This document shows positions 11,296 to 24,305 of a DNA stretch of 64,000 nt, piece after piece (within the stretch, counting starts at the first letter, position 1; each line of letters starts with the position of its first letter). This DNA is from the human T2T-CHM13v2.0 reference genome, Homo sapiens. The notes under the pieces were generated by a model. It ran no database searches, was not told the origin of the DNA, and saw only the letters and a list, made by a program, of their open reading frames with translations. The translations under genes and the position numbers were made by a program. The DNA is taken from the NCBI RefSeq assembly GCF_009914755.1, contig NC_060932.1; one strand, given 5' to 3'.

Positions 11296-13289
11296 CTATC
11301 ACCCAAACTTTGAGTAACAAGGAGCCTACATCTTGGTTTCCAAACTTTGAAGCAGCCAAAGGCAGTTGTTCCATCCCTAGTGGACTGATCTTATCTCCAA
11401 AATCAGGGAACAGACTAAGATGAGCTTAAAACAGAGAAAAGGAGGAGGCCTAATTCATCACTCTTCTTAACTGTCATGGTTTATTTGGACCCAGCGCTGA
11501 CCTAGGTTTGTTCCCTGATTCCTGAAAGCTAACCTCCTCTTTTCTGCCCTTTGCAGGGGATTCGTATAAGCAATGACAGTTTTTTACAAATAAAATCTCA
11601 CCACAAAATAAATAATCACAATAGATTTATATAAAGCAGTTTGGGCTAAAGTTGGAGATGGGCACAGAGCCGAGCCTGCTGTCCACCTCCAATCATGAAG
11701 TTTGTTCTCAGGGCCTTAGGCTCAGTGTGTACCATTTGAAAAACAATTCTTTTCCCATGCTGGCTCTCAGTATAACAGGCTGGAATAATTTTTTCACAGC
11801 TTCCTAATAGATACCTTACTTGAAAATGCTATTTAAGTCAAAACCACCAGTTTCCTCTCAATGAATTAAAAGGTAATGCAGTTTTAATTTTAAGCCCAAT
11901 TATATCTTTTGAGATGAACGGTACAGGGCTAATCCTTGTTTAGGGCCAAAAGGGAGTGATAAATCATTTACTTACATGATCAGATTGCTTCCATGCTCCT
12001 CTGGGCCGCTCAGAAAACAGAAATGAGTCGTTAATACCGGCCTCTTCGGTGAAAAATGAAATGGAAGGGAAAGTCATGGTAGATGTTGCCTGTATCAGTC
12101 AGGATATTTAAGTTATACTGTGGTTAAATAAAATGTCAGTGAATTATGCCAGCACCACCGTTATTCTTATTCATGCCTCATGTCAATCCAGCTTATTGAG
12201 GGATCCTGCCTCCTGCAGTTATTCAAGTACCCACTGACACAGACTCCAATTTGATACACACTTGGAGGTCATGGCCATGAAGGGAGGCAGATGTGGTGAA
12301 TATGGTAGAAAGCTTCCATTGATAACTTATAGGCCTCTACCAGTCACATGGATAAGACAAACTTTCAGAGGTAGGGAAGAGCAATCTAATACTGTATTCC
12401 TAGAAAGAGAACTGGAAAAATACATCAAATAAAAATCACCAATGTTTCCAATGGCTATTGCACTGTCTTTTAGCCTCCGCACAAGATTTCCAAGTAAGGA
12501 TGAGGCTGAGAGCAGAAGTAACATGTATTACTAAGCATCAAGTTTGGGTAGGCACTTTGAGATATAAAACCCTCAACAATGTTTTGGGATAGGTAAAATT
12601 TCCTATTTTACATTTTCTATGGCCCAGAGAAGTGCAAGGCTTTTCCTAAGATGAAAGAGCCAGTGCATGAAATCAGGATCCTCATCCAGAAATGTCTGAC
12701 CCGGAAGCCCACATTTGTTTCACTATTCAGTGCTGCATACTGCCTATGGAGATGTTCACCCTACATTGAATAAATCACAGTCCTTGAGGCTGGAGTGCCA
12801 TGAAATTGAACCTAGAGAGAAAGGGAAAAAGGGAATAATCAGGCAGAATGAATTTAATTTTTTTTTCCAAAGAATAGATTAATCTAAAGTAGCTTAAGTG
12901 TGCATATCTGCAATAATAATGAACAATTATTGCCTTTGTACTAAGTGTCTAAGCCAACAAAATGTATTTTGTAGCTACCCCAAGAAATAGTACATGCAAA
13001 ACACATTTTGTTAGCTTACACACATAGTAATTACCTCTTTGTAACAGAGTTAATTATCTCTGTAACCCCATGAGATAAATTCAAATTTTAGTTCTGCTGC
13101 ATACTAGTGCTATGATCTGGACATATTTATTAAAGTCTTTGAACTTTAATTCCCCTAGTTATTCAATGGAAATATTCATACTTTCTACATACTTTACTTG
13201 GAGAATAAAATGAAAACGAAAATGTAAATGGGATGTTATACCTAAACGACATTAAACACACTAGATGCTAAGTAAAGATAGGCAGGGAT

Positions 13290-17584: not shown

Positions 17585-17949
<365 letters not shown>

Positions 17950-18049
17950 TGTGTGTCCCTCATTTACATCCCCTTATTTATTCAGTTGATCATCTATTTG
18001 TCCTCCAAGTTGGAATGGGAAGATCATCCGTCTCACTTGAGTTTACTTC

Positions 18050-18472
18050 CTTTATTTCACTCCAGAATTGGTCCATTGCCATTTGGTGTGAACTAGTGGA
18101 GCGGTAGCAGAGGAAGTGAGGAAGGAGGCTGGTCTGTGTGATTAGGCTATCTGTGTTTGCTAATTGGCACTCATCAAAGTTAGGCTCCTGCCCTCCTGCA
18201 GATACCAGAAGATAGGGTGTGCTCTCTCCTTGCATGATTACATTTCAAAGAGATGACTTCCACTCCTTAAGAAAGATGTTACTGGATAGTACAACTGGAA
18301 GTAGGTTGGAAGATTTACATCTCAAAGGGAGCAGATAACAAATTTATAATTGAAAATTTTCTGAACTAAATGCTTTAAGAAAGAGGCGATTAGGAGGCTA
18401 GGGCCAGGTAAAAAAAATAAAAGGCTGTCTAAAATATAGTCAAGTTGTGTTGAACTTCAAGTCCATCTTAAT
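18050..18472 (-). mobile_element. ERV1 LTR (MER67/MER31-like)
   Basis: GATTACATTTCAAAG, AAGATTTACATCTCAAAGGG and CTGTCTAAA...AGTCAAG motifs. Confidence 0.6.
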
Positions 18473-18742
18473 TACTCCCTCACCAACTGAGGACTGCACA
18501 CAGGTTATATGTGGGAGTCCTGCATCTTCCCCTCTCACTGACTCAGAACAGGGGTCTGGAGCACTAATGAATAGAAATGAAAATTCAGGTACACGTGCCA
18601 AAACCAATGGCCAAAATTACTCTATTTTTCCCTTAGTGGGATGTTATCACTCCTGAAGACATATAATGTTTTGTCATCTTTTCTATTCACTTAGATATCT
18701 CTTAGTTCCTAATCCAGCCTCTCCCTGTTCACTCAATAAAGG

Positions 18743-18863
18743 CTTCTGATTCCCACTTTCAGGTATAGCCTGGGCTCCACTACTAGAATACAACAAGGAA
18801 ATATCCTCCGTGTTGTATTCTAGTAGTGGAGCCCAGGCTATACCTGAAAGTGGGAATCAGAAG
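18743..18863. repeat. Perfect 53-bp inverted repeat with 15-nt spacer
   Basis: 18743-18795 is the exact reverse complement of 18811-18863, checked base by base. Confidence 0.98.
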
Positions 18864-18886
18864 GATAAATCAGTGAGAATAAAAGG

Positions 18887-18888
<2 letters not shown>

Positions 18889-18952
<64 letters not shown>
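18889..18952. repeat. Compound (CA)n(GA)n microsatellite
   Basis: Direct reading. Confidence 0.98.
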
Positions 18953-18953
<1 letters not shown>

Positions 18954-19739
18954 TCCTTTTATTTGGGAGATTAATTAGAAGGTGGCATTCTACCATGATT
19001 AAGAACGCAGGGAGTAAGTGAAGCAAGTTTTAAGTGGAAAATTTAGAGGGAGGTTGTAATTTTAATAAAATGGATTTGAAGTTTATATGGTAAATTTTTA
19101 CTTCATCTCTCTGCCCAGATAAATACATTGTTACACTAAAATTCACAACCTAAATATAGGTGATAAAATCTAGGTAAGGTCCTGTTCCCTCCACCGTGCT
19201 CTTAACATTATTTCTTCCACATTGCTATTATTAATGACACAATATCACACTTTCTATTCTCTAATTATTACTCCTGGATAAAACCTACTAACCCACCCAG
19301 TCTTTTTCTTAAGAAAGAGTCTTCATCTTCCGTGGATGTTCAAACAGTGATCAATAAAGGGAAAGTGTGCTGTGAATGAGGTGGACCCTTGGATTTCTGA
19401 AGACATTAATTGTCTTAATAGTATCCAGGTTCCTTGCCAACAAATCAAGAGAGGTTTAATTTGTCTTTATGAAGTTTTCATTTATCATTGTACTATCTAT
19501 ATTTGATGTTTCTAATTATCCAACTGATGTATTATTTAGATCCCTTCTGAGACTAGTCAAATTCACTGGAATTTTCTCTTTATTTTATTACAAATAAGAA
19601 CATGTATCAGCCAGAAAAAAATTATACTGTTCCATGTTACACAAGAATATTGTTCATTATTTACTTTAAAAGAAAAGCTGCTCAGGGAAAAAGAGAGAAA
19701 CTCTTTAGCAAATTAGTTTTTAGTTCATTTTCTCAGCAA

Positions 19740-20170
19740 AAATATATAATAAGTATATTATAAACAATTATACAATATATTGTATATGATAGTTATATAA
19801 TATACATTATACAATATATTACTTATATATAATATGATGTATTATATAATATATAACTAATATATGTAATAGTCTTGTATAATCATTTATGTTATATAAT
19901 GTAATATGTAATATATAGTATATATGTAATAATATAGTAAATATAATAAAAAGTATTATATATAAGTTAGATATAATCATTTATCATCTTATATATAATA
20001 CAATACATTATATATAAAATTAAATATTTCTTATATGTATTTAATTATATATTAATATATTATATATTTTAATCATTATATCACATATACAATTATGTAT
20101 AATAATAAAAGATGTTTTATGTATTACATATGTATTTATATATGAATATAAAAATATAAATTTAAAATAT
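19740..20170. repeat. AT-rich low-complexity / degenerate (TA)n tract
   Basis: Almost entirely A/T over ~430 bp. Confidence 0.9.
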
Positions 20171-21935
20171 TGGGGCTACAGTAGTAAGGCTCAGTTTTTA
20201 TCCTCAAAGAAATTATTATTAATAAGTAATGAAAGTCTTACCATGATTTATTAACCTATCCACTTTTCTATCAGTTTAAAAATGACAATGATTTATATGG
20301 TGCCTAATATTGGCTATGGGCTAAGGTTTAGGTGCTATTTAATAGACTAATTATTGGCAGCTAGTAATGCCTGATCTCACCTATGATTGGTTGCTTTATT
20401 CTCAGTTCTTTATCCCTCCTAGTATCCTGGCTTCTTGCCATGTGACTTTGCAGTTACTCTTACTAAAGTCCATCTCATTTATGCTGTGCTTGCATGAGAT
20501 TTTGGTCAAATGTCCCAAGACTAGGTCTTAACCCCATTCACAAGGGAGGAGGCCTCATGTCCTAATCATCTCCTGAAGGCCCCGCCTCTTCATAACTTCA
20601 CATTGGCCACCCTTGAGGAGCTAGAGGGGCTCCTTTTAAACTACAGCACACAAGGTGGTAAAATTATACAGTGATGTGAAATATGCATCCCTTATAACCT
20701 CCAAGGTGTTGCCAGAAATCTATCAGAACTGGTCATGGGACAAAACTATGCTGTGATCTACAAGGAGTCTGAAAAATACATAAAGAAATCTTGCCTATCA
20801 TGCTTTACTTGATTCAAAATAAAAATTCTATTTTTTAAATAAGTGTTCCACAAATGTCCACGCTTCTAACTCTTTAAAGATGATCAATACTAACTGTAAA
20901 CACCGAGGGAGAATGGTGTTCGTGCTTCATGTGGTGTTATTGAAGATGATTGAGTGGAGGTGGCTTGGACAAAGGAGAGCTTTCTGTTGAGAGTTGGCTT
21001 TCTTCTGATGTTTTTGATGTGTTTATTTATCCACATAAATGTCATATATTGTACTTATAAATCTGCAAATCTTGGGATTTTCTGCCTGCAGCGAGATGCA
21101 CATTATCTTCATGAGCTAAGTATTTCTTAAGTTTCTCATCTGGGTCTAAAAGCAAACAACAGTTAAAAACAATGCAAATGGCTATCAATTGTGACTTTCT
21201 GAGTTATTCTCAGACACAGACATGAATGTCCTCTGCCTCTGGTTTCAGGCTGCCGGCTTTTTGAGACAATCCTAAGTAAGGAAAACAGTCTAAGTCAAGT
21301 GCAGGCTCTAGTTTAAGTCTAATGGTCTTAGTACTGGCATTCAGTTACCCAGCATGACTCTAGGCCATCTGTGTGTCCACTCACCGGGCCTGCTCCACTC
21401 CTGCAAAAGCTTCTACCTGTGTGTCTCAGTTGGCACTTGACAGTGGATACTTAACCACCTTTGAAAGAGGCAAAGCCTGGGGCAGAAAGTGAGGCTGCAA
21501 GAAAAGCACCTTGAGAGTTGAAAGAGTTTACGTTCAGGGCTCTGTTTGGAGGGGACAGGTGGAATTCAGGTATCAGCAGGAGAGACGTTCAAGGGAAGAC
21601 TGTGGAAGGAAAGTGAAGTGAACCTCAGCCAGTAATGAGATAGAGAAATGTGTTCTTGGCTATTCTCTGAACATGGTCTTCTGTCTGCAACTGTATTCTG
21701 AGTGAAGCCCCATCCACTACAGTTGTCAGGCAGCATATGCCATAGTATTCAGAAGAGTCTGGAGCTACATGGCCTGAGTTCAAGCCCTCCTTCATGGCCT
21801 GCAACTACTTGGTGTTTCCATTTGTCTAAACCTGGAGTTCAGTGGCAGGAAGTCCACCTTCCTGCATAAATAAGGGCATTTTTCATCATCAGATTTACTA
21901 GAAATAGAGGTATATTTGAGCCTTCACAATCCTAC

Positions 21936-23309: not shown

Positions 23310-24305
23310 TAAGTAACAAGACTGAATCAGTAATACAGTCTCCCAAAAAAGAGAAGCCTAGAACTGCATAACTTCACTACTGATTTCAACTCAAGTTTTA
23401 AATAAGAAATAATACCAATTCATTTCAAACCATACCAAAAAATTAACATGGAAGGAATACTTTCTAACTCATTTTACAAGGCCAACATAACCCTGATAAT
23501 ACCAAAACCAGGGAAGGAAAAAAGAGAAAAGGAAACTACAGGCCAATATCCTTGATGAAAATGGATGCAAAATTCCTCAATAAAATATTAGTGAACTGTC
23601 TAACAACACATCAAAAAATAAAGAACACCACCATGGTCAAGTGGAATTGATTCCAGGAACACAAGAATAGTTCAACATACACCAATAAACGTGATATATC
23701 ACCTCAACAGAATAAAGGACAAAAATCATGTGACTATTTCAGTAGATACAGAAAAAGCGTTTGAGAAAATACTCTTAAAAACTCTCAATATCATGAAGGG
23801 ATGTTGAATTTTGTCAAATGCTTTTCTGTATCTATGGAAATGATCATATGATTTTTGGAAAGTACCACAATATTTACAAGCTATATATAATTTTGGAAAG
23901 TACCACAATATTTGCAAACTATACATAATTTTGGAAAGTACTACAATATTTGCAAGCTATACATAATTTTGCAAGGAAAGTACCACGACACAATAAAGGC
24001 CATATATGACAAACCCAAAACTAAAATCATACTGCATGGGGAAAAACTGAAAGCTCTTTATCTAAAAACTGAAACAAAACAAATATGCTCACTTTCACTA
24101 CTTCTGTTCAGCATAGCTCTGGAAGTTCTAGCCAGAGCAATTAGTCTAAATAAAGGGCATACAAATTGAATAGAAGGAAGTAAAATTGTACTTGTTTGAA
24201 AACAGTATGATCTTATATATGGAAAAACCTAAAGACTCTATCAAAAACCTCTTAGAACTGAAAAACTAATTCAGGAAAGTTGCAGGATACAAAATCAGCA
24301 TACAG
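23310..24305 (+). mobile_element. Old L1M ORF2 (RT region) fragment with internal rearrangement
   Basis: Peptide relics IKAIYDKPKTKIILHGEKLKA and [14 protein letters not shown]. Confidence 0.9.
23853..23966. repeat. Three tandem copies of a 38-bp unit
   Basis: TTTTGGAAAGTAYYACAATATTTRCAARCTATAYATAA-type unit starting at 23853, 23891 and 23929. Confidence 0.95.

What the first reader, a model, noticed from the sequence alone, without database searches (positions are those of the whole stretch)
18743..18863. Perfect 53-bp palindrome in apparently unique sequence: candidate template-switch hairpin or de novo miRNA-like precursor
Seen: two 53-bp arms with zero mismatches and complex sequence. 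The 15-nt spacer AGGAAATATCCTCCG itself folds (AGGA-AATA-TCCT), extending the stem to a 4-nt loop with a 3-nt bulge. There is no flanking TSD and no transposon termini I recognise. Inference: perfect arms imply a recent origin (replication template switch) or ongoing arm-to-arm conversion. If transcribed from either strand it would give a long dsRNA stem (Drosha/Dicer or ADAR substrate), as in young primate miRNA loci. In DNA it could extrude a cruciform, 25 bp from a (CA)n(GA)n tract. I do not recognise it as a named miRNA.
Basis: partly seen in the sequence, partly recalled or inferred. Interest (0 to 1): 0.7.

Follow-up and report, generated by a model that had tools for sequence, protein, structure and literature searches.

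The report
Single-copy human hairpin from template switch
A perfect 53-base inverted repeat occurs once, in a stretch of human chromosome 8 with no annotated gene; it is likely the scar of one DNA-copying slip in a primate ancestor, a well-described kind of mutation, and nothing found here shows that it works as a gene.

Summary
The palindrome is real: 53-bp arms without a mismatch (18743-18795, 18811-18863) around a 15-nt spacer, or 57-bp arms with one mismatch and a 7-nt loop. It is single-copy in CHM13, whereas a nearby MITE-like control gives 588 candidates, and it has no target-site duplication, so it is not a MITE. No Rfam family reaches its cut-off. Best reading: a short-range template-switch mutation, a class with 4,017 events catalogued in great apes and 6,054 miRNA-sized hairpins in human genic regions. 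Perfect arms date it only loosely: zero mismatches has probability about 0.5 at the chimpanzee split, 0.2 at orangutan, 0.04 at macaque (divergences recalled). It is not in the great-ape event list. A miRNA role is unsupported: no host gene, a stem far over the optimal 33-39 nt, no CNNC; but miRBase entries do exist from switches of 53-61 bases. The decisive tests (primate orthologues, small-RNA reads, raw long reads, Dfam) could not be run. New member of a known kind; interest low.

The parts
18743..18795 (+). Left arm of the perfect inverted repeat (53 bp, 45% G+C, all four bases, single-copy)
18796..18810 (.). 15-nt spacer; partly self-complementary: either mismatch + 3 bp + 7-nt loop or 4 bp + 4-nt loop + 3-nt bulge. 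The 3-4 bp inner stem would be enough to prime fold-back synthesis (inferred)
18811..18863 (-). Right arm, exact reverse complement of the left arm; symmetry ends abruptly outside (3 of the next 10, 6 of the next 25 positions match)
18878..18963 (.). Context: (CA)21(GA)11 compound microsatellite (18889-18953) bracketed by a perfect 11-bp inverted repeat (18878-18888 / 18953-18963); possible second switch footprint, weak evidence
18084..18476 (.). Context: old interspersed repeat, 70-77% identical to 39 other places among 40 scored of 599 candidates; LTR-like by recall only; ends about 270 bp before the palindrome and does not include it
17651..17950 (-). Context: Alu element (7SL-like Rfam matches on the minus strand, poly-T at its left end), pointing away from the palindrome

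Best explanation
The feature is a single-copy perfect 53-bp inverted repeat that likely arose in one short-range template-switch mutation in a primate germ line and is likely a neutral, untranscribed scar. Shown: anatomy, single copy, no TSD, sharp outer boundary, no Rfam family. Inferred: replication stalled just past the spacer, the nascent 3' end folded back on the 3-4 bp inner stem (or jumped to the opposite strand), copied 53-57 bases of the arm just made, and returned to the normal template (types 3-2-1-4 or 1-4-3-2 of the four-point model). Which arm is the copy cannot be told without an outgroup. Inferred age: younger than about 2.8% per-lineage divergence (roughly the ape-Old World monkey split), and, weakly, older than the human-gorilla split, since it is missing from the great-ape event list. 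As single-stranded DNA it is predicted to fold (-67 kcal/mol) and could pause a fork; cruciform extrusion in cells is less likely.
For: Exact reverse-complement copy next to its source with an abrupt end. Single copy: whole-genome DNA searches return only the two arms (one search also six microsatellite-only hits), two 26-mers covering 52 of the 53 arm bases have no other match at up to 3 mismatches, control MITE-like element 588 candidates. No TSD. The class is common: 4,017 events among human, chimpanzee and gorilla, copied fragment median 12, max 128, single inverted repeats the majority outcome (PMC7954356); 53,666 events, 31,007 new stems and 6,054 stems of 30-55 bp in human genic regions, of which 57 (0.9%) are miRBase loci (PMC10710096); switches of 53, 55, 58 and 61 bases are listed in its Dataset S1. 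No gene in the window, nearest 70 kb away (annotation supplied with the finding).
Against: The defining test (outgroup lacking one arm, four-point alignment better than forward alignment) could not be run. The locus is not among Walker's 4,017 events, so there is no published confirmation. 53 bp is in the upper tail of copied lengths (median 12). No direct-repeat return signature in either flank (614 and 268 of 2000 shuffles score as well). Lack of function rests on annotation and structure rules, not on expression data. Break-repair snap-back synthesis would leave the same footprint.
Confidence: 0.75

Rival explanations
1. Same local copying, but during double-strand break repair: a resected 3' end snapped back on the short inner stem, was extended 53 bases by a repair polymerase (Pol theta type, SD-MMEJ) and rejoined by microhomology.
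For: Snap-back SD-MMEJ primes on short inverted repeats and leaves a new, longer inverted repeat (PMC5728401 passages); the spacer holds a 3-4 bp inverted repeat.
Against: That paper describes non-processive synthesis and structures within 30 nt of the break; 53 bases is long for it. No junction microhomology can be judged without the ancestral allele.
Confidence: 0.08
2. An older, imperfect inverted repeat that has been made perfect by quasi-palindrome correction or repeated arm-to-arm conversion.
For: The classic mechanism is documented in human-chimp comparisons (PMC5453318 passages). One mismatch sits at the loop end of a 57-bp stem. A second, 11-bp inverted repeat lies 14 nt away.
Against: No degenerate symmetry outside the arms (769 of 2000 shuffles as good; longer flanks 16 of 279 controls as good). 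Conversion is not needed to explain zero mismatches.
Confidence: 0.07
3. A young, expressed hairpin RNA locus (proto-miRNA or endo-siRNA source) driven by an unannotated promoter such as the neighbouring LTR-like repeat.
For: Very stable RNA hairpin on both strands (-107 to -108 kcal/mol). 12 of 111 switch-derived miRBase loci are intergenic, 8 of them within 1 kb of a transposon promoter; intergenic examples with 55-64 base switches exist (mir-3169, mir-3913, mir-5681a). An Alu and an LTR-like repeat lie within 1.1 kb.
Against: No annotated transcript; no Rfam family at cut-off (best 65.5 bits against 245, 49.4 against 97, pairing-only matches); stem 53-57 against optimal 33-39 nt (PMC5340965); no CNNC in 30 nt downstream on either strand; only 0.9% of suitable hairpins inside genes are miRBase loci; arm words found in 0 papers; not in Dataset S1.
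Confidence: 0.04
4. A MITE or other DNA-transposon remnant whose terminal inverted repeats form the arms.
For: Size (121 bp) and shape resemble hairpin MITEs; Dfam/RepeatMasker could not be searched, and the DNA search can miss very old families.
Against: Single copy against 588 candidates for a control element; no TSD; control element's arms already differ at 2 of 31 positions, while these differ at 0 of 53.
Confidence: 0.03
5. An assembly or library artefact (fold-back chimera), or a cell-line-private change in CHM13.
For: Only one assembly could be examined; palindromes are known trouble spots for cloning and sequencing (PMC7999016 passage).
Against: Short, internal, with unique flanks on both sides and no N; CHM13 is a multi-read long-read consensus (own knowledge); fold-back artefacts usually run to the read end (own knowledge).
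Confidence: 0.03

Closest known systems
Short-range template-switch mutations, four-point model, types 3-2-1-4 / 1-4-3-2 (Loytynoja & Goldman 2017 PMC5453318; Walker et al. 2021 PMC7954356; Loytynoja 2022 PMC9435742)
   Same: A perfect reverse-complement copy of adjacent complex, single-copy sequence with a short spacer and sharp ends; length inside the reported range (max 128 in apes; 97-180 per individual in unmasked human polymorphism).
   Different: Longer than typical (median 12). Not in the great-ape list; no ancestral allele seen here, so membership is inferred from anatomy.
Template-switch-born miRNA loci such as hsa-mir-3914 (55), mir-5583 (53), mir-3684 (53), mir-3169 (55, intergenic), mir-3913 (61, intergenic) (Monttinen et al. 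2023 PMC10710096, Dataset S1)
   Same: Same size class of perfect or near-perfect hairpin, foldable from both strands; mir-3914 is even the second Rfam match (49.4 bits, below its 97 cut-off, by pairing rather than sequence).
   Different: Those have read evidence and 99 of 111 lie inside genes; this one has no host gene, no known reads and no sequence relation to any of them.
Hairpin MITEs (80-bp mariner-type element near chr8:137,615,148; the name MADE1 is recalled)
   Same: Short, almost wholly palindromic element.
   Different: Those are multi-copy (588 candidates) with diverged arms; this is single-copy, perfect and has no TSD.
Recombinogenic long inverted repeats and PATRRs (Lirex PMC5414712; review PMC7999016)
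   Same: Meets the Lirex definition: arms over 30 bp, identity over 85%, spacer under 20, arm/spacer ratio 3.5 (over 1 for perfect arms); that paper reports over 100 such sites in the human genome.
   Different: Far shorter than PATRRs (200 bp and more), not AT-rich (45% G+C), has a spacer, and no rearrangement is known here from the searches made.

Membership tests
Short-range template-switch mutation | Reverse-complement copy of sequence within tens to hundreds of bases | tested here: met
   53 of 53 identical, 15 nt apart
Short-range template-switch mutation | Copied fragment complex (all four bases), not a dispersed repeat | tested here: met
   All four bases, 45% G+C; single copy; RepeatMasker status itself not available
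Short-range template-switch mutation | Copied length within the observed range | tested here: met
   Max 128 in apes; 53-61 base cases in Dataset S1
Short-range template-switch mutation | Ancestral allele lacks one arm and a four-point alignment beats the forward alignment | not testable with these tools
   No primate or second human genome held (no relatives); locus absent from Walker S2 Data
MITE / non-autonomous DNA transposon | Terminal inverted repeats | tested here: met
   Shape only
MITE / non-autonomous DNA transposon | Target-site duplication flanking the ends | tested here: not met
   None of 2 nt or more at the true ends; within 6 nt of slack only 3-5 nt words
MITE / non-autonomous DNA transposon | Many dispersed copies | tested here: not met
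   1 candidate against 588 for the control; patterns 39 and 42 only self
MITE / non-autonomous DNA transposon | Match to a Dfam/Repbase family | not testable with these tools
   No such library offered
Canonical miRNA gene | Stable hairpin | tested here: met
   z -17.7; -107 to -108 kcal/mol on both strands
Canonical miRNA gene | Stem near 33-39 nt | tested here: not met
   53-57 bp against PMC5340965; not absolute,
Canonical miRNA gene | Processing motifs (downstream CNNC; basal UG; apical UGU/GUG) | tested here: not met
   No CNNC in 30 nt downstream on either strand; by direct reading no UG at the stem base and no UGU/GUG in the spacer on either strand (the script test was faulty and is not used)
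Canonical miRNA gene | Member of a described family | tested here: not met
   0 Rfam matches at gathering score in the window; sub-threshold pairing-only matches
Canonical miRNA gene | Transcribed, with ~22-nt reads from both arms, fixed 5' ends, 2-nt overhangs | not testable with these tools
   No read data; supplied annotation shows no gene in the window

The most novel reading that the evidence does not exclude
A multi-switch replication accident at a stall-prone (CA)n tract created both this 53-bp hairpin and the 11-bp inverted repeat that brackets the tract, in the ape lineage or still polymorphic in humans, and the neighbouring LTR-like repeat transcribes it in some tissue into an unannotated small-RNA source: a de novo miRNA caught at birth in intergenic DNA.
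Probability: 0.04. Interest if true: 0.5.

Novelty: new member of a known kind. Interest (0 to 1): 0.2.

Why it matters
If the best reading holds it matters little: one long, clean, apparently uncatalogued example of a mutation class already counted in thousands. It would be a convenient test locus for dating a switch and for asking whether 50-bp perfect arms decay by point mutation or are kept perfect by conversion. If reads showed processing, it would add an intergenic case to about a hundred switch-born miRBase loci; if one arm were polymorphic in humans, it would let the before and after states be compared directly.

Tried and rejected
MITE: rejected on copy number and TSD. Part of the neighbouring LTR-like repeat: pairwise alignment of 11 of the 39 other copies ends at 18483 at most. 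Known RNA family: none at cut-off. Larger degenerate inverted duplication: the 18-nt match 18453-18470 / 19066-19083 is not significant (E 0.11; 16 of 279 control windows as good). Direct-repeat '4 before 1' signature: not significant. Coding role: one 52-aa ORF on the minus strand starts beyond the microsatellite and reads through it into the right arm; it is mostly dinucleotide repeat. Sigma-70 promoter/terminator scan: 0 sites, and not meaningful for human DNA. AATAAA at 18735 and 18878: background is 1.7 per kb on +, so not taken as a signal. Catalogue look-ups, all negative: Walker S2 Data and five other files (S1 Data too large to read); Loytynoja 2022, 11 of 22 files searched, full event list not known to be among them; Loytynoja & Goldman 2017, 7 of 8 files, human-human loci only; microinversion paper PMC8755829 supplement unreadable scan; Monttinen Dataset S1 (S2 too large). 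Full-text searches for arm words (0 papers) and for coordinate fragments with chr8 (26 papers, 20 listed, none recognisably about this locus, judged from titles and abstract starts). Calibrating coordinates on Walker event 3536 failed: no clear inverted repeat at the expected place. A genome-wide density of such repeats was not obtained; only 264 kb around the window was scanned.

Full report
Observation. An exhaustive scan of the window finds arms 18743-18795 and 18811-18863, 53 of 53 complementary, with the stated 15-nt spacer; apart from (AT)n runs the next best perfect repeat has 15-bp arms. Allowing one mismatch, the arms are 57 bp around a 7-nt loop. The 201-nt context folds at -116.1 kcal/mol, z -17.7, 0 of 200 shuffles as stable. 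In 264 kb (window plus 100 kb each side) it is the only repeat of its class: score 53, runner-up 23, three Markov controls 11-12. That stretch was centred on the finding, so it gives no genome-wide rate.

Copy number and borders. DNA searches of CHM13 with 18600-18890 and 18480-18810 return only the locus and its own mirror (1 candidate each); 18796-19700 adds six hits to the microsatellite only. Two 26-mers covering 52 of the 53 arm bases have no other match at up to 3 mismatches, and the reversed control has none. The same search with an 80-bp hairpin element 80 kb downstream gives 588 candidates (the name MADE1 is recalled), so a MITE family would have shown. The tool warns that no match does not prove rarity, and very old families can be missed. 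There is no TSD at the true ends. Symmetry stops abruptly: 3 of the next 10 positions match, and flank alignment is no better than shuffles (769 of 2000).

Neighbourhood. An Alu lies at 17651-17950 on the minus strand. An old interspersed repeat at 18084-18476 matches 39 other places at 70-77% among 40 scored of 599 candidates; 11 of these copies aligned pairwise end by 18483, so the palindrome is outside it. Its likeness to an ERV-type LTR is recalled, not tested. The (CA)n(GA)n tract spans 18889-18953 and is bracketed by a perfect 11-bp inverted repeat, 18878-18888 / 18953-18963. Of 20 dinucleotide tracts in the DNA held, this is the only one with an abutting repeat over 4 bp, but an 11-bp repeat alone has E 1.4 in the 1.8-kb region and 31 such repeats occur in 264 kb; it is a post hoc lead. 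The supplied annotation has no gene in the window; the nearest lncRNA starts 70 kb downstream.

Age. With 106 arm positions, the chance of no arm-to-arm difference is 0.53 at 0.6% per-lineage divergence, 0.43 at 0.8%, 0.20 at 1.5%, 0.04 at 3% and 0.005 at 5%; the 95% bound is 2.8%. The labels chimpanzee, gorilla, orangutan, macaque and marmoset for these values are recalled approximations. Perfect arms therefore mean 'probably within apes or Old World primates', not 'very recent', and need no ongoing conversion. To look the locus up I estimated its GRCh38 place from MIR30D (T2T 135,922,764-839; GRCh38 134,804,876-945, PMC5960066 passage): offset about 1.118 Mb, so about chr8:136.417 Mb, give or take some kb since the anchor is 1.6 Mb away. 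Walker's table of 4,017 human/chimp/gorilla events has no chr8 row between 136.3 and 136.5 Mb; the nearest found is at 136,511,698. This weakly favours an origin before the gorilla split; it could also reflect their filters (RepeatMasker, under 50 deleted bases, alignment quality) or an allele absent from GRCh38.

Mechanism. Template switching makes exactly this footprint: single inverted repeats are the majority outcome, copied fragments have median 12 and maximum 128 bases (PMC7954356 section 8), and no prior similarity is required (PMC10710096). The 3-4 bp stem in the spacer would allow intra-strand fold-back priming, but an inter-strand switch fits equally; which arm is new cannot be read from one sequence. 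No direct-repeat return signature was found. Snap-back break repair leaves a similar product but is described as short-range and non-processive (PMC5728401).

Function. Rfam gives nothing at cut-off in the window; the E-value matches (MIR2646 65.5 bits against 245, mir-3914 49.4 against 97) come from pairing, not sequence. The stem is 53-57 bp against an optimal 33-39 nt (PMC5340965), and there is no CNNC downstream on either strand. Of 6,054 suitable switch-made hairpins inside genes, 57 (0.9%) are miRBase loci, and a promoter is the limiting factor. Against my reading: Dataset S1 lists miRBase loci from switches of 53, 55, 58 and 61 bases, and intergenic ones near transposons, so length and location do not exclude expression; and perfect 46-bp intronic inverted repeats have been seen as stable RNA in plasma (PMC7518892 passages; no chr8 mention). 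For DNA, the hairpin is predicted at -67 kcal/mol when single-stranded and it meets the Lirex definition of a recombinogenic repeat. In equilibrium models longer loops and imperfections near the loop delay cruciform extrusion, Z-forming tracts compete, and only 75 of 19,563 mouse repeats were predicted to extrude in competition (PMC10783518 passages); long arms work in its favour. No such calculation was run for this locus.

What was read. PMC10710096: parts 1-4 of 6 of the text, part 1 of 3 of Dataset S1 plus a search of it. PMC7954356: section 8, passages, searches of 6 supplements (S1 Data unreadable). PMC9435742: parts 1-2 of 6, 11 of 22 supplements searched. PMC5453318: passages, 7 of 8 supplements searched. 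PMC5414712: part 1 of 2. PMC7999016: passages and section 2.2. PMC5340965, PMC10783518, PMC7518892, PMC5728401, PMC10691534, PMC5960066: passages. PMC8755829: search listing only, supplement unreadable. Unseen supplements (Walker S1, Monttinen S2 and its genome-wide list, Loytynoja's full polymorphism list) could hold this locus. 'Not in print' rests only; miRBase, MirGeneDB and Dfam were not searched.

Verdict. Observation confirmed; interpretation partly supported. Most likely a single template-switch scar without function (0.75), a new member of a known kind, interest 0.2. The boldest reading left open, an expressed de novo small-RNA locus from a multi-switch event, has about 0.04.

Noticed in passing
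window 18878-18888 / 18953-18963: Perfect 11-bp inverted repeat abutting both ends of the (CA)n(GA)n tract, 14 nt from the main palindrome; 1 of 20 tracts examined has one over 4 bp, but E 1.4 on its own. Possible second switch footprint.
   Followed up: partly
window 12939-13029: Aged single-copy hairpin: 33-bp arms with 4 mismatches, 25-nt spacer that pairs further; no other copy found in CHM13. Looks like an older example of the same class or a very old MITE remnant.
   Followed up: partly
window 18084-18476: Interspersed repeat with 599 candidates genome-wide, 70-77% identity, not among the masked stretches listed with the finding; LTR-like by recall.
   Followed up: partly
window 23720-23857: 36-bp arms with 5 mismatches, 66-nt spacer, next to a 38-bp tandem repeat at 23853-23971; the arm resembles L1 sequence by recall, perhaps an L1 inversion junction.
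   Followed up: no
L024:5148-5229 (chr8:137,615,148-137,615,229): 80-bp palindromic multi-copy element, 588 candidates; MADE1-like by recall; used as positive control.
   Followed up: yes
L040:6522-6617 (chr8:137,676,522-137,676,617): 33-bp arms with 3 mismatches, 30-nt spacer, inside the span of LINC02055 by the supplied annotation; closer to miRNA stem size than the finding itself; copy number not checked.
   Followed up: no
chr8 near 137 Mb, LINC02055: PMC10691534 names this neighbourhood as a hotspot of sequence diverging from the reference (passages); over 100 kb from the palindrome, link not shown.
   Followed up: no
window 19715-20175: Degenerate AT-rich low-complexity tract (G+C 0.19-0.26) with several 11-14 bp inverted repeats, about 850 bp right of the palindrome.
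   Followed up: no
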